A DNA stretch of 64,000 bases from Podarcis tiliguerta. Lineage: Eukaryota. This document shows, piece by piece, positions 30,401 through 51,400 of the stretch. The position numbers were made by a program. Location: the NCBI GenBank assembly GCA_965153285.1, contig OZ229112.1; one strand, given 5' to 3'. Within the stretch, counting starts at the first letter, position 1, and the number at the start of each line of letters is the position of its first letter.

Positions 30401-33400
30401 AACAGGGTTTGTAGATTGTCTCAAAAAGTCATTATTTGTCACAGTACAATAGACCTAGTTCTCACAAACAGTACAAGAGCTGGTAAACCTATGTCTGGAC
30501 AGTTCCATTTTGGACTGTGCATGTGATTTAATGATTTACCATTCCATCATATTGAAAAGTGGGGATAAGGGTTTCTACACATAGAAAACATAGGTTATCC
30601 TTGACCATTAGCAATGATGACTGGGGCTGATGGGAGCTGTAGTCCAAATCATCTGTGGAACACTGTGTTGGCTACACAAAGAGGCATATTGGTAACATTG
30701 TATCAGAGAAATTGAGACACAGCTGTAGCTCAGTGGTAGAGTAGCTGTTTTGCATGCAGAAGGTCCCAGGTTCAATCTCTGGCAACTGCTGGTAGGGATG
30801 GGAGAGAGCCCCTATCTGAACAGCAGCTGCCAGTCACTATAGACAGTATTGAGTTAGATGGACCAATGGTCTGACTGAGTGTAATGTAGCGTCCTATATT
30901 CCTATAAAGGTTATTAGAAACTGAACTTTGTTTCACGAACATCTTCTAGTTTAAGGTACAGACTCAGGTATACGTCTGTTGGAAAATAGCTATTGTGATT
31001 TTGAGAGGCTACCTTAAATAGACATTGTTTCCATCCCAAACATGGGCCTGAAATTGGATTTGAATGTATCCTAATTATCATCCAGAGCCATCCAAAACAC
31101 TCCCTCTCCTGTTTCTTTAATCCACGGATGGGGAAGCTATGGTTGTCTAACTCCAATCAATTCTTAACATTGGGGCTGATAAGAGTTGGAGTCTCAAGAA
31201 CATCGGAAAGGGCCACAGATTCCTCATTTCTGCTTTAATCTACTGTTGACCAATGCATGCAGCTGCTATACTGAAGAAATTATTGAGATGCTTATTTACA
31301 TGTGTTATTTTATTAAATTTTGTCCAAAGCAGCTATAAAAATGTCTGCTAAAGAACTGTAAATGTAACATATAACACAAGGCAAAGTGCTGCACTGTAAT
31401 AACTAAAACAGTATAAGAAGACAGATGCAGGCAAACCATTAAAACATGCACTTCTTGACCCTACCCAAAAATATTTTAAGAATAGAGGAAAGATAGCCTT
31501 TAAGATGGTTCTGATACTTTAAGAATAACAGGGAAGGGTTTGTAAACTTTCACAATTGCACACAACTTTAAAAATCTGAAGATCTGTAGAAGAAAATAAA
31601 TAACATTAATATTGAACCCCAGTAAACCTTCCAATCTTAAACATCATAAACAGTGTTCATGAACAGTGCAATGCTTTACACAAGCCAATCATGAAGCAGC
31701 ATCAAACTGAATTATTCCATATTTCCCAATGATCATCCATTCAGGTTCAGTTTTAGTAAGCTGTTCACCTTGCCCAGGTTTCAGCCCAACCTGGATATCA
31801 CATTTTAGCGTTCTTAAGCTACAGAGAGGGGCAGGGTGAAAATTGTTCAAGGCTTGATGGAACGGCACTGTGAATTCCCACTTCCGATCAGCTATCAACT
31901 TTCTGTAGTTCAAATCACCTTTAAAAACAATTAAATTTGACTTCTGCAATTCACTGTACAAATCAGGAGCCACTTGAGCCATCCTACAATATTCATGCGG
32001 CGAGGTCCAGAACAAGTGATCATGATAAATCCAAGCGCCATTTTTCAAATAGCCCTCCCAGCAGACACCACACCTAGACAACCCCTTGTGATTAGCTGAC
32101 TGCATTTGCTTAATTGTCCAATTCAGGTCACGCCTTGTAGTATCTGACACATACCATGGGATGCTTTTTCCATGGAAATGAATTTCAGTAGCTAACTTGG
32201 AGGATAACAAGAAGTCAGCCAGTATAAGGTCAGCAGTAAGTTCAAAACCAGCATTATCCAGGACTATGTCAAGTCTAGTAGTCTGCTTATTCATGTTCTT
32301 TTTGTTTATAAGCAGTGACCAAAGCATTTCCATGTGATCCACCAAGATAAAAGGTTTTAACTCTTCCACAGACAGTAATGGGTCAGACTTCTGAGAATTA
32401 TCTGCCCCAGCTGACATTGACAGGTCACACTTATTACCCCACAGAGAAACCTAAAGAAGGAAAAAGTACACCTTAATCTGTATGCCAAGTGATCCTTGCT
32501 CTACTATACACCATGTGCATCTTCGAGGACTGCAGTTGAGGGGCTACTGAGAGTTCTGCTTGTTGTAACAGGAGAAAGTAGGTCAGAATTGGAGTATTTC
32601 TTTTTACTTCCATTGAAACCAATGTGAAAAGGCAGTGGGTTAATTCCCAAGAGGCAAGTATAACATTAATAAAATTTAATAAGAAATGTAAGAAAAATGA
32701 GAATTAATCCACTTCTTTTGACCTTGAACAGGCTTAGGAAGTAGCAGTTTCTCTGCCAAGACGCACTTACTGTTCTTTCAGGTTCCAATCCACTAAGCTA
32801 GGGAACCTCAGGCTCAGGGGGCCAATGTGACCCTCCAGTTCTCCTTCCTCCTTCTAATGTGTTATGTATGAAACACCTGTTAGTGAAAGAACGTAACTAG
32901 TGATTTTGGGACGCAAACCACAGAGCCTAGGACTTGCCGATCAGAAGGTCAGTGGTTCGAATCCCCACAACGGGGTGAGCTCCCGTTGCTCAGTCCCTGC
33001 TCCTGCCAACCTAGCAGTTCGAAAGCACGTCAGAGTGCAAGTAGATGAATAGGTACCCCTCCGGCAGGAAAGTAAATGGCATTTCCATGTGCTGCTCTGG
33101 TTCGCCAGAAGCGGCTTAGTCATGCTGGCCACATGACCCGGAAGCTGTACACCAATGCTCCCAATAAATCGAGATGAGCTGTACGCCAATAAATCGAGAT
33201 GAGTGCCGCAACCCCAGAGTCGGTTACGACTGGACCTAATGGTCAGGGGTCCCTTTACCTTTAACAAGTGATGTTACAGAAAAGTTGAGGCCAAAGTGTA
33301 ATTAATATAGTTTCTGCTGATGCATTTAGCAGTTTTCTGCAGATGGGTTATATGATTAATCTCTCAGTATAAAGCAGACTCCTGATTTAGCTAAGAAGGG

Positions 33401-48400: not shown

Positions 48401-51400
48401 GGCTCTGACAGGGTCCTAGAGCTCTCACGCCTCTTTCCCAATGCCTAGTTAGCACTTCCCAGCTTTGAGGAGGCAGCAGGGCTCTAGGACCCTGCCAGAA
48501 GGTTATGGTGTGTGTCAAATTTTGGCCTCACTACACCCCCCCCCCCAGCGCCCCACCTCCCATGACAAGCAGCATGCAGCCCACAGGTTCTGTGTCAAAT
48601 AAAACTGCATGGTTAAAATAAAATGTAATACGCGAGAATACAAACATATTGATTAAATAGTCCTCTGTCAAAGACATTGCTCAAATCATGATCTGGACAT
48701 CTCAAACTTAGCTTCACATACGCTCTGTTCCTCTGACTTAACTTCCGGGTTTTGCCTCAAGCCTGAATTGGAAACTCACTTCTAATTCTGGCTCAGAGAC
48801 ACGTATGGCTTATGCTTTGTTGCGACGTAATAGAAAACTTGGTTTTGCAAACCACCGAGTGATTTGCAGAAGCAGGGAAGACTTGAATACTCGAAGTACG
48901 AGGGGTGGAGCGGAACCCAACCACCCACTGACAGCCGAAAAAGGCCACTGTGTTCCTGGATTCTGTTGCGAAACCTCCCTTTCCCAACCAGAAGTGGTTC
49001 AAAGGGCGGAGAACAGACACCCCCCTGAGACCGCAAATGCCACCCTCCCAAATAATTCGCGGGGGCAGCTCCGAATCTGGAAGCCGGCTTTCCGTGCAAA
49101 GCGAACTGGGGCTCGGAGGAAGAAGAGCAGAAATGGAAAACAGCGGCTCACTAGAGTGCCGCGTTTTCAGCCGCCCCGGCTCTCCGAGCGAGGAGGGGAA
49201 GAGACCCGGACATAGCTCCCTACCCTTGTCCCCTGGTACTCTACAGCTCCAGCCTCCCCGCGAATGGCCGACGGTTCACCCCTCGCCCACCCATTTCTCA
49301 GAGCCCCCGACGAAGCGGCGGAGACGGGACGCACCCCTTGAACTTGCCCGCGAGCTGAGGCGGCAGCGTTGCCGTCGGCGCCGCCATTTTGCTCATCGTA
49401 GCGCCGCCCGGCGCAGCTGCGCGCTTTCCCGAGCAACGCCTGTTCCCATTGGTTGGCGGCTGGGCTTCCTCGCTCAACGGGCTTAGGGAGGAGGGGCGCT
49501 GCAGCAAACCAGCCCCTTCGGTAAAGGAGGGCGGGCGCCAAACGAAACGCGAGGCCTTGGGGGTAATCGCCTCCTCAGGAGGAGGCGGCGACCTTCATCG
49601 GCGCTCTGGGGCGGGGAATATGACGTCGCGCGTCAACCGCACAGACGGAGGGGGCGGGGCTGACTCTGTGGCTCCGCCGGCCCTCTGTGGAGAGAGCGGG
49701 TCCTCCTCCCACCTCGTGCTTCGGCGCCAGGTTGGTAAAAGGCTCCTGCGCGTGGAACTGGGTCTTCCTCTGATTGGATGGTGTTTGGGGAGCGCGCATG
49801 GGGCAGAGTGCGAGCGGAGGGGGGGGGGTCATTCCTCCCGCACCCGCTTAAAACGCCCTAATACTGTGATCGTCCCCTGCGGCGGGTCGCCTCTTGCGCT
49901 CGCAGTATGGTTCCCAGCGGAGTCCTTCCCCGCAACCTTCCGGTCTTGTTAGTGGGAGGGATGGAGGCAGCGCTCGTATAGCATGAATGCGGAAAGCGGT
50001 GTGGGTTTCACCTTTAATTTCACCTGTCACCTGGGCGCTGTAAGGGAGGGTTTCAGCGCAGTGCTAGGAAGATACTGAGGCCCTACGGCTCCCATGATCC
50101 TGGTCATTTGCCATGTTTCCTGTAGTTCCTGTAGCTTTTTCTCATCCAAATAATACTAATATGATTGGTGCAGGAATGGCCTGGCCTGAGGGAGAAAATT
50201 CTGCAGTGAAGGAAAGATTGGACCTGTGTTGAGATATCCGGCAGTTGTAGGGGGAACGATCATGTGAGTGACAGTCAAATGCAAGATAGACCATTAAGGC
50301 AGCACTTCTCAAGCTCTTTGGAACTGGGTTCTTCTTCTCAGTTACCGTAATTCCATTCCACCCAGCTCAGCGCTGACAATCTTTATGCAGGCAAGTGCCT
50401 AGTTCTTTCACAAAGCTGTGTTTATGTGGCCTGAAGCTAGGTAATATGGCAGTAGCTCCTCCATCTGTACTTTGAGCAGAGCCAAGTACATTGAACAGTT
50501 CCAAGTCTCACCTGCAGGGATGAGAAGAAGTGGAAAGTATCATATGAGCTTCTGTCACTATAATTTCATCTCCTCACACCTCACAGCAAAGTTGTGCCAT
50601 CTACTTGAAGGCAGAGGTGACTGAAATGCCAAACCTTCACTAGTGGACCCCAGCTACTGTAGGGCCATCCCCAAATAATTTTCTTTTAGGTGCCCTATGC
50701 CACACCACAATCTAAGAACCTAGGGTCTAAGGAATACATTGTGACCTTATTCAGTCAGAGTACCATGCTATTCAATGTGTTTCAGTGTATGATGTGGTCT
50801 AATTTATTAGCCTATCCTGCTTCTCAGTTGGTGAAACTGAACTATCACTGTCTTAGTCATTGGCTGACTCACAGATTCTGTAGAGTATAGACTGCATTAT
50901 TTACCTTTGGCTGGTTAAAGTTATGCTACAAGGAAGAAAGAGGCATCTCCCTGTTTGCCATTAACCAAATTTTAATATGTTTGAGAACAGATATTTTGAT
51001 AAGAATATTCTGATCTGACCCCGTGTTTGGCCATTATGTTGCTGTGGTGGGTAAAGTAAACGTACTGCTGCAGTCTTCCTTGCTTGCTTCACTTGAACCT
51101 GAGCCTATGAATGCAGAACGAGCCCTAATATTGATGTGATTGACTTGCTGTAGTTCAGAACTGTTTTTATAAAATGATAAATATTGCTCGTCAGAAAATT
51201 GATGCACTATAACTCTCTCATTCAGGACACAGTGAAAAGATGGCAAGTAAACTACTGAGATTCCTGGCTAGATCTTCACACAAAACAAGCAACTGCCAAC
51301 ACTTGCATAAATATGGGCTTTCAGCATCAAGCAACAATCTTCAAGGGGTGTCAAGCAATTCTTTATTAGCATGTAGATCCATCAGTATGTGCATTCCAGA

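What the first reader, a model, noticed from the sequence alone, without database searches (positions are those of the whole stretch)
31689..49396. Two complete, intact tandem ARMT1 (DUF89 phosphatase) genes at a normally single-copy locus
Seen: two 5-exon genes about 10 kb apart with identical exon phases, open frames (441 and 440 aa), GT-AG sites, separate CpG promoters and candidate polyA signals. Both keep the DUF89 motifs LDN, VSD, GDLNYRK and RTxK. By hand count, exons 2, 3 and 4 differ at 16/106, 26/236 and 39/166 nt, introns are barely alignable and carry different transposons, yet neither copy has a disabling mutation. Known: in human and mouse the RMND1-ARMT1-CCDC170-ESR1 block has one ARMT1. 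Inference: an old lineage-specific duplication retained by selection, giving a two-enzyme metabolite damage-control pair.
Basis: partly seen in the sequence, partly recalled or inferred. Interest (0 to 1): 0.75.

Follow-up and report, generated by a model that had tools for sequence, protein, structure and literature searches.

The report
Tandem ARMT1 gene pair in lizard
A wall-lizard-like genome carries two intact side-by-side copies of the ARMT1 phosphatase gene whose catalytic exon has been kept almost identical while the front half of the protein has diverged; public gene annotation already lists both copies, so this is a modest finding.

Summary
Two complete five-exon ARMT1 (DUF89) genes lie head-to-tail on the minus strand. 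Copy A is 38577-31689 (441 aa). Copy B is 49387-41598 (440 aa, or 443 aa from the ATG at 49396). They sit between RMND1 and CCDC170. All splice sites are GT-AG, intron phases match, and each copy has a CpG island and an AATAAA.

- Exon 5, which carries every catalytic motif, differs at only 19/762 nt (dS 0.05 against 0.40 for exons 2-4), which indicates gene conversion.
- 46 of the 52 amino-acid differences in exons 2-5 fall in residues 20-230. Copy A is the derived copy.
- RefSeq already models both copies in Podarcis muralis, P. raffonei and Lacerta agilis, along with read-through fusions to CCDC170.

dN/dS across exons 2-4 is 0.33. The duplication predates the Podarcis-Lacerta split. Whether it predates the split from teiids is unresolved.

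No paper describing the pair turned up. Transcription and enzyme divergence could not be tested here. This is a new member of a known kind, of moderate-to-low interest.

The parts
31689..38577 (-). Copy A (matches RefSeq 'ARMT1-like'), ATG to stop. Five coding exons: 38577-38522, 37345-37240, 36016-35781, 34208-34043, 32450-31689. 441 aa.
   Evidence: Its exon peptides match P0002 (P. raffonei ARMT1-like) at 433/439 residues.
41598..49396 (-). Copy B (matches RefSeq 'ARMT1'). Exons: 49387 (or upstream ATG 49396)-49335, 46779-46674, 46090-45855, 43585-43420, 42359-41598. 440 or 443 aa.
   Evidence: Its exon peptides match P0001 (P. muralis ARMT1 X12) at 432/438 residues.
31686..32471 (-). Exon 5 of copy A plus 21 nt of intron. 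It is 97.2% identical to 41595-42383 in copy B, which I read as a gene-conversion tract. 9 of the 19 exon differences lie in the first 80 nt, so the youngest tract probably starts about 80-125 nt into the exon and ends at the stop codon.
   Evidence: high-scoring pair; positions of differences; Fisher p=3.9e-5 for first 80 nt against the rest; p=2.2e-8 for synonymous differences in exon 5 against exons 2-4.
41595..42383 (-). Exon 5 of copy B plus flanks; the partner of the conversion tract.
38201..39100 (-). CpG-island-like promoter region of copy A (GC 0.57, CpG o/e 0.83). 38472-38727 is 78-79% identical to 49280-49530 in copy B, so about 150 bp upstream of the ATG, including a CCAAT-type box, was duplicated with the gene.
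48801..50200 (.). Larger CpG island (GC 0.60, o/e 0.85) between copy B and RMND1. Presumed bidirectional promoter.
   Evidence: The bidirectional use is an inference from the head-to-head arrangement.
31309..31314 (-). AATAAA 375 nt after the stop of copy A.
41203..41212 (-). Two overlapping AATAAA 386-390 nt after the stop of copy B.
389..17589 (-). CCDC170 coding exons downstream of copy A: 17589-17455, 14584-14327, 13339-13175, 11710-11522, 5853-5521, 637-389. RefSeq fusion models splice ARMT1 exon 4 onto the first of these.
   Evidence: tblastn of P0121, P0125, P0128.
51213..63249 (+). RMND1, head-to-head with copy B. DUF155 match at 62965-63249. An open frame at 51213-51749 starting MASKLL is a likely first coding exon.
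   Evidence: PF02582, E 7.3e-14. The first-exon assignment is an inference.

Best explanation
An old tandem duplication copied the whole ARMT1 gene, from about 150 bp upstream of the ATG to the polyA site. The unit is roughly 7.5-8.3 kb. The duplication arose in the ancestry of lacertid lizards.

Both copies still encode full-length subfamily-III DUF89 metal-dependent phosphatases. These have an aspartate nucleophile in LDN, metal ligands in LDN and VSD, a lid aspartate, and the GDLNYRK and RTxK phosphate-binding motifs.

The long last exon, which carries all of these residues, has been homogenised between the copies by gene conversion. Exons 1-4 and the first ~40 codons of exon 5 encode the N-terminal helical half and the region around the mobile lid aspartate. 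These have diverged under overall purifying selection.

Copy A, the one nearer CCDC170, is the derived copy. It has replaced residues that are otherwise nearly invariant in vertebrates; for example, IDTLHRH has become INNLEQH in exon 2.

Shown here: gene anatomy, intactness, the conversion signal, the asymmetry between copies, and presence in several lacertids.

Inferred: both copies are active phosphatases with the same chemistry, and they differ, if at all, in substrate gating, regulation or expression.
For: Anatomy and motifs.

Active-site assignment:
- HMMER alignments of both exon-5 peptides to the fission-yeast Duf8901/Duf89 and DUF89 PDB chains.
- Passages of PMC9062747 naming Asp248/Asn249, Asp286, Asp195, Asp363 and Lys401.

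Fold:
- An AlphaFold model of the RefSeq proxy for copy A (P0002) has pLDDT 77 and pTM 0.82.
- It matches DUF89 structures 6umq/6umr with TM 0.83-0.88.

Gene conversion:
- dS by exon is 0.41, 0.19, 0.94 and 0.05 for exons 2-5.
- Heterogeneity tests give p=2e-8 (exon 5 against exons 2-4) and p=5e-4 (exon 3 against exon 4).
- In exon 5, A and B share 9 derived residues against Salvator, compared with 1 and 1 for the other two groupings.

Constraint:
- dN/dS is 0.33 over exons 2-4, with p=1.4e-5 against equality.
- Window A and window B each differ from their Podarcis counterparts by only 6 residues.

Asymmetry:
- At 190 sites invariant in 18 other amniotes, A alone departs at 11, B alone at 3, and both at 1.
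- In a 45-vertebrate alignment the figures are 9, 3 and 1 of 147 sites.
- The branch leading to A is 0.21, against 0.06 for B.

Location of differences: 46 of 52 fall in residues 20-230 and 6 of 52 in residues 231-441.

Orthologous pairs elsewhere:
- A-type and B-type sequences occur in models from P. muralis, P. raffonei and L. agilis.
- Exon 5 has 7 paralog-specific sites shared across species and 0 species-specific shared sites.
Against: - I saw no expression data. RefSeq models are predictions, and I could not see their evidence.
- The pairwise dN/dS cannot separate the two lineages. Apportioning by protein branch lengths puts copy A at very roughly 0.5 (my own estimate, not a fitted model), which is also compatible with relaxed constraint.
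- Copy A departs at conserved sites, which is what decay would look like at first.
- Inside the converted tract there are 7 non-synonymous and 3 synonymous differences (my reading). That is too few to say anything about selection there.
- The structure model and the trees used database proxies, not the window's own joined proteins.
Confidence: 0.8

Rival explanations
1. Copy A is a redundant or slowly decaying duplicate. Its catalytic exon looks healthy only because it is periodically overwritten from copy B. Its exons 1-4 survive either by chance or because they serve as alternative 5' exons of read-through transcripts into CCDC170.
For: - The exon-5 conversion signal.
- A departs at 11 of 190 otherwise invariant sites, against 3 for B.
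- RefSeq models join A exons 1-4 to CCDC170 (P0121). One L. agilis model joins B exon 1 to A exons 2-4 and then to CCDC170 (P0125).
Against: - The exon-5 differences that distinguish A from B are shared between the window and P. raffonei/P. muralis (7 sites, 0 contrary). So there has been no conversion since those species split, yet A exon 5 is still intact.
- A full 441-aa A-only model exists in P. raffonei (P0002).
- A and B have changed equally little between the window and Podarcis (6 residues each).
- dN/dS is 0.33 in exons 2-4.
- The same kind of ARMT1-CCDC170 fusion model exists in birds and a loris that show one ARMT1 in my hit lists, so read-through does not need a second copy.
Confidence: 0.17
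2. The duplication is older than the split between lacertids and teiids. Copy B is the ortholog of the single Salvator protein in my set. Copy A is an older sister lineage that was lost, or is unannotated, elsewhere. Later conversions of exon 5 and part of exon 3 make the pair look younger than it is.
For: - The maximum-likelihood tree of exons 2-4 groups Salvator with B (98/93) and leaves A outside on a long branch.
- Exon 4 has dS 0.94.
- Window copy B exon 4 matches Salvator at 42/55 residues, against 38/55 for copy A.
Against: - The AU test does not reject an A+B clade (p=0.108, log-likelihood difference 5.2).
- Strict shared-derived counts in exons 2-4 are thin: 1 site for B+Salvator, 1 for A+B, 1 for A+Salvator.
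- A's long branch may be misplaced.
- No A-type protein outside lacertids appeared in the exon-4 search (11 hits from 61 candidates), though that search is insensitive.
Confidence: 0.3
3. The pair is an assembly artefact: a falsely duplicated haplotype.
For: Exon 5 is 97% identical between the copies.
Against: - Exons 2-4 differ by 11-23%.
- Intron lengths differ: 1176/1223/1572/1592 nt in A against 2555/583/2269/1060 nt in B.
- About 6% of copy A's intron sequence aligns to B.
- Both types occur in models from three other species' assemblies.
Confidence: 0.02

Closest known systems
Vertebrate ARMT1 / C6orf211 (DUF89 subfamily III damage-control phosphatase; PDB 6umq)
   Same: - Same Pfam family, with a 5-exon model of 440-441 aa.
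- Same catalytic motifs.
- Exon 5 matches chain 6umq_A at E 1e-120 to 1e-122.
- Same position between RMND1 and CCDC170.
   Different: Two tandem copies are present here. Copy A has changed N-terminal residues that are at least 95% conserved in 43 other vertebrates: 9 of 147 such sites.
RefSeq 'ARMT1' / 'ARMT1-like' / 'CCDC170-like' models of Podarcis muralis, P. raffonei and Lacerta agilis
   Same: - Window copy B matches P0001 at 432/438 residues and copy A matches P0002 at 433/439.
- This is the same gene pair in close relatives.
   Different: - The window is not identical to any of these sequences, so it is probably another lacertid or another individual.
- RefSeq partly merges the copies and CCDC170 into one many-isoform gene.
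- No analysis of the pair is attached to those records as far as I could see, because cluster members could not be listed.
Fission-yeast DUF89 paralogs Duf89 and Duf8901 (PMC9062747)
   Same: Two subfamily-III DUF89 paralogs in one genome with the same chemistry. The authors report distinct effects of their deletions in vivo (passages read). This is a precedent for a two-enzyme pair.
   Different: - It is an independent, much older duplication.
- The yeast copies are diverged along their whole length, and they are not described as tandem in the passages I read.
- Here the catalytic half is kept nearly identical.
Tandem duplicates evolving in concert by exon-limited gene conversion (globin-type pattern; recalled general knowledge)
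   Same: A conserved exon is homogenised while the introns and other exons diverge.
   Different: There are only two copies. Conversion appears old rather than ongoing: 7 paralog-specific exon-5 sites are shared across species.

Membership tests
DUF89 / ARMT1-like domain (Pfam PF01937) | Significant match to the family profile above the gathering score | tested here: met
   - Exon 5 of A scores 227.5 bits and exon 5 of B 234 bits, against a cut-off of 25.
- Both exon-3 peptides pass (26.8 and 25.5 bits).
- Exon 4 of A scores 17.5 bits, below the cut-off; exon 4 of B and both exon-2 peptides have no match.
- In all, 5 of 8 exon peptides match.
DUF89 subfamily III | Length about 380-480 aa and an RTxK motif about 40-50 residues from the C-terminus (PMC9062747, passage read) | tested here: met
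   The summed exon lengths give 441 and 440 aa. RTxK starts at residue 213 of the 253-residue exon-5 peptide, 40 residues from the end, in both copies.
DUF89 subfamily III | Metal-binding and nucleophile residues (Asp-Asn of LDN, Asp of VSD), the lid Asp, the Asp/Arg of GDLNYRK, and the Lys of RTxK | tested here: met
   All are present at the same positions in both copies. They align to the corresponding residues of the Duf8901 and DUF89 chains. Residue roles are taken from PMC9062747.
DUF89 subfamily III | DUF89 fold | tested here: met
   Tested only on the RefSeq proxy for copy A (P0002, 433/439 identical to the window's exon peptides). The model has pLDDT 77.1 and pTM 0.82, and the top PDB matches are 6umr/6umq with TM 0.83-0.88. 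The window's own joined protein was not folded.
DUF89 subfamily III | Metal-dependent phosphatase activity | not testable with these tools
   Needs recombinant protein and assays.
Retained (selected) tandem duplicate | Both copies intact in several species, and dN/dS below 1 | tested here: met
   - Both window copies have intact frames.
- A-type and B-type models exist in three other species.
- Pairwise dN/dS is 0.33 for exons 2-4, p=1.4e-5.
- Lineage-specific dN/dS was not obtainable, because I had no outgroup nucleotides.
Retained (selected) tandem duplicate | Each copy independently transcribed and translated | not testable with these tools
   Only indirect signs exist: separate CpG islands and AATAAA signals, and RefSeq models whose supporting evidence I could not inspect.
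Gene conversion between paralogs | A sharply lower synonymous divergence in one segment, with a discordant history between segments | tested here: met
   - dS is 0.05 in exon 5 against 0.40 in exons 2-4, p=2e-8.
- Exon 5 has 9 A+B shared-derived sites, whereas the exon 2-4 tree places Salvator with B.
- No dedicated conversion program (such as GENECONV) was run.

The most novel reading that the evidence does not exclude
The pair dates to the base of Lacertoidea, before lacertids and teiids split. On this reading it has been held for more than 100 million years as a 'shared catalytic core, two alternative caps' system. Conversion keeps the catalytic exon the same in both copies. Copy A's cap and lid have been remodelled at positions that are otherwise invariant in vertebrates, giving a new substrate range. 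Identical intron phases also allow cross-copy and CCDC170 read-through splicing to mix the N-terminal cassettes.
Probability: 0.12. Interest if true: 0.55.

Novelty: new member of a known kind. Interest (0 to 1): 0.3.

Why it matters
ARMT1 is a poorly understood metabolite damage-control phosphatase, and its physiological substrates in animals are unknown. This pair is a natural experiment: the catalytic half is nearly identical (6 differences in 211 residues), while the N-terminal helical half and lid region differ at 46 of 211 residues. That points to where specificity or regulation might lie, and it suggests ready-made chimeras to test. It is also a clean small example of exon-limited gene conversion. 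Beyond that, it is an ordinary lineage-specific tandem duplicate that automated annotation has already picked up.

Tried and rejected
- Listing the members of the two lacertid protein clusters, to see which species carry each copy. The shared database was switched off.
- Searching with exon 4 of each copy for A-type or B-type relatives outside lacertids. None was clearly A-type or B-type. The searches depend on shared five-residue words and gathered only 61 and 87 candidates, so absence means little. Exon 2 (35 aa) and exon 3 were not searched on their own.
- Dating the duplication with trees. The result is suggestive but unresolved.
- Sensitive alignment of the two promoter regions, looking for a co-duplicated piece of RMND1. 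Nothing aligned beyond the 256-269 nt block already known.
- Rfam scan of the whole window. It found only two tRNA-like SINE heads.
- Assembly artefact and haplotype duplication: rejected (see rival explanations).
- No repeat library was available, so the transposons in the introns could not be named.
No lizard genome could be scanned.
- Paper supplements were not consulted.

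
Full report
**What is there**

The window has no N. A self-comparison of 31-40.5 kb against 40.5-51 kb gives seven collinear blocks. They mark two head-to-tail gene copies on the minus strand.

From the printed sequence and a coordinate script, the models are:
- Copy A exons: 38577-38522, 37345-37240, 36016-35781, 34208-34043, 32450-31689.
- Copy B exons: 49387-49335, 46779-46674, 46090-45855, 43585-43420, 42359-41598.

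All eight introns start with GT and end with AG after a pyrimidine tract. Intron phases are 2, 0, 2, 0 in both copies. The two split codons are identical (GGA and AAT). Summed exon lengths give 441 aa for A and 440 aa for B.

The finding's end coordinate, 49396, is an in-frame upstream ATG in B that would add three residues (443 aa). RefSeq uses that start. In copy A the same codon is GTG.

The stop codons are 9,909 bp apart and the ATGs 10,810 bp apart.

Wherever a full-length protein was needed, I used the named database proteins P0001 and P0002 as proxies. The window's own joined proteins therefore remain unsearched and unfolded.

Introns differ in length: 1176, 1223, 1572 and 1592 nt in A, against 2555, 583, 2269 and 1060 nt in B. 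Only about 316 of A's 5563 intron bases fall inside blastn alignments to B (my sum).

One transposon difference could be shown. A tRNA-Ala-like SINE head at 44536-44591 in intron 3 of B matches another copy at 30719-30790, downstream of A, and has no counterpart in A's intron 3. Without a repeat library I could not name families.

CpG-island-like stretches lie at 38201-39100 (A), 48801-50200 (B, facing RMND1) and 25701-26300. AATAAA lies 375 nt after the stop in A and 386 nt after it in B.

About 150 bp upstream of each ATG still aligns at 78-79% identity. The core promoter was therefore part of the duplicated unit.

**Identity of the genes and neighbours**

- Pfam PF01937 matches exon 5 of A (E 2.9e-67) and of B (3.2e-69). 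It also matches both exon-3 peptides above the cut-off and exon 4 of A below it. In all, 5 of 8 exon peptides match.
- Both exon-5 peptides match the DUF89 chain 6umq_A at E 1e-120 to 1e-122, and the fission-yeast and budding-yeast DUF89 structures.
- RMND1 lies on the plus strand (DUF155 at 62965-63249).
- CCDC170 exons lie on the minus strand between 17589 and 389.
- The order is RMND1, then copy B, copy A and CCDC170 in the opposite orientation.

**Catalytic equipment**

Passages of PMC9062747 name the working residues of subfamily-III DUF89 enzymes:
- the Asp-Asn pair (nucleophile and metal ligand);
- a second metal-binding Asp;
- a lid Asp;
- an Asp that helps activate water;
- an Arg and a Lys.

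They also give an RTxK motif 40-50 residues from the C-terminus and a length of 380-480 aa.

In both window copies the motifs WGNxCDLS, LDN, VSD, GDLNYRK and RTxK start at residues 4, 64, 101, 178 and 213 of the 253-residue exon-5 peptide. They align to those residues in the HMMER alignments. All of them lie in exon 5.

An AlphaFold model of P0002, the proxy for A, has pLDDT 77.1 and pTM 0.82, with a weak C-terminal part from a shallow 45-row alignment. Its best PDB matches are 6umr and 6umq with TM 0.83-0.88.

Exon 5 differs at only 19/762 nt. Synonymous divergence by exon is 0.41, 0.19, 0.94 and 0.05 for exons 2 to 5.
- Synonymous differences in exon 5 against exons 2-4: about 8 of 157 sites against 32 of 102, p=2e-8.
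- Exon 3 against exon 4: p=5e-4.
- Within exon 5, 9 of the 19 differences lie in the first 80 nt (p=4e-5).
- The high-identity block ends 3 nt past the stop codon and 21 nt into intron 4.

This is the pattern of gene conversion confined to a conserved exon, probably with an older event in exon 3.

The conversion is not recent. Comparing the window's A and B with P. raffonei A and P. muralis B, 7 exon-5 positions separate A from B in both pairs. None groups the copies by species. 8 positions are singletons or other patterns.

**Where the proteins differ, and which copy changed**

Exons 2-5 carry 52 amino-acid differences:
- 24 in residues 20-133;
- 22 in residues 134-230;
- 6 in residues 231-441.

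The lid aspartate is residue 197, in a low-confidence segment of the model between helices 176-192 and 212-222. I infer from this that the divergent part covers the helical N-terminal half and the neighbourhood of the mobile lid.

At 190 alignment sites invariant in 18 other amniotes, copy A alone departs at 11, copy B alone at 3, and both at 1. In a 45-vertebrate alignment, at 147 columns at least 95% conserved among the 43 non-lacertids, the counts are 9, 3 and 1. The clearest case is exon 2, where IDTLHRH has become INNLEQH in A.

In the exon 2-4 tree, the branch to A is 0.21 and the branch to B is 0.06.

**Selection**

- Pairwise dN/dS is 0.33 for exons 2-4 (49.2 non-synonymous differences over 401.5 sites, 31.8 synonymous over 102.5), below 1 with p=1.4e-5.
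- The window's A and B differ from their Podarcis counterparts by 6 of 439 and 6 of 438 residues. Recent change has therefore been equally slow in both.
- I had no outgroup nucleotides, so I could not fit lineage-specific rates.
- Splitting the pairwise values by protein branch lengths suggests roughly 0.5 for A and 0.2 for B. That is my own rough estimate, not a fitted model.

**Already in databases**

The exon-5 search returned two lacertid clusters: P0001, labelled 'ARMT1 isoform X12 [Podarcis muralis]', and P0002, labelled 'ARMT1-like isoform X13 [Podarcis raffonei]'. Window B fits P0001 and window A fits P0002.

The exon-4 searches and the fetched sequences add fusion models:
- A exons 1-4 joined to CCDC170 (P. 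muralis, 881 aa).
- B exons 1-4 joined to CCDC170 (P. muralis, P. raffonei, L. agilis).
- One L. agilis model joins B exon 1 to A exons 2, 3 and part of 4, then to CCDC170.

So both copies exist in at least three other lacertid assemblies. The duplication predates the Podarcis-Lacerta split, and annotators already see a complex read-through locus. Similar ARMT1-CCDC170 fusion models are listed for many birds and a loris.

I could not list cluster members, and I could not see the evidence behind any model.

**Age**

- A maximum-likelihood tree of exons 2-4 (21 rows, database proteins only) groups the teiid Salvator with B (98/93) and leaves A outside.
- The AU test does not reject an A+B clade (p=0.108).
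- Strict shared-derived counts are 1, 1 and 1 for the three groupings in exons 2-4.
- In exon 5, A and B share 9 derived residues against Salvator. That fits either a lacertid-stem origin or conversion.
- The timing relative to teiids is therefore open.

**Literature**

The following full-text searches found no paper on this pair:
- ARMT1 + duplication + lizard: 1 unrelated paper.
- ARMT1/paralog/squamate: none of the 12 listed papers held ARMT1.
- 'ARMT1-like': 3 papers hold the term; the 2 listed are unrelated.
- ARMT1 + Podarcis: 0 papers.
- ARMT1 + CCDC170 + read-through: 1 paper, on breast cancer.

For all of these except PMC9062747 I saw only the listings. Supplements were not available.

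**Verdict**

The functional reading is plausible but untested, and it needs amending for exon-5 conversion.

The pair is a new member of a known kind: a lineage-specific paralog of a known enzyme, already present in automated annotation. It is not unique in type either. Marsupial 'ARMT1-like' models fall into two clades, each of which holds Dromiciops, Phascolarctos and a didelphid.

Noticed in passing
window 2770-2886 (+): A plus-strand stretch translates to something 69-72% identical to CCDC170 residues about 650-690 of the Podarcis/Lacerta models. It lies in the opposite orientation to the gene, inside a CCDC170 intron. It may be an inverted exon fragment, or coiled-coil similarity.
   Followed up: no
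window 40277-40584 and 52728-53098: An interspersed repeat (91-94% identical in two blocks) lies between the two ARMT1 copies and again inside RMND1. The family is not named.
   Followed up: no
window 30719-30790 (+) and 44536-44591 (-): tRNA-Ala-like sequences (Rfam tRNA at 47.6 and 30.2 bits) lie at the ends of a 140-bp repeat pair (30727-30868 and 44452-44591). These are probably heads of a tRNA-derived SINE. One sits downstream of copy A and one in intron 3 of copy B.
   Followed up: partly
window 46957-47025; 43832-43882 with 44131-44181: A 70-nt near-perfect palindrome lies in intron 1 of copy B. A pair of 51-nt inverted repeats, about 300 bp apart, lies in intron 3 of copy B. These may be hairpin or terminal-inverted-repeat elements.
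   Followed up: no
window 25701-26300: A third CpG-island-like stretch (GC 0.57, o/e 0.69) lies between copy A and the first mapped CCDC170 exon. It may be CCDC170's own promoter and first exon.
   Followed up: no
proteins P0024, P0051, P0026, P0111, P0102, P0109 and others: Marsupial 'ARMT1-like' models split into two or three clades, and Dromiciops, Phascolarctos and Monodelphis each appear twice. ARMT1 seems to have been duplicated independently in marsupials.
   Followed up: partly
proteins P0139-P0164: Gene models that fuse ARMT1 exons to CCDC170 are listed for many birds and a loris. Read-through from ARMT1 into CCDC170 may therefore be widespread in amniotes rather than special to lizards.
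   Followed up: no
window 49396-49388 (-) against 38586-38578 (-): Copy B has an in-frame upstream ATG that adds Met-Ser-Lys; RefSeq uses it. In copy A the same codon is GTG, so the two proteins may differ in their N-terminal start.
   Followed up: partly
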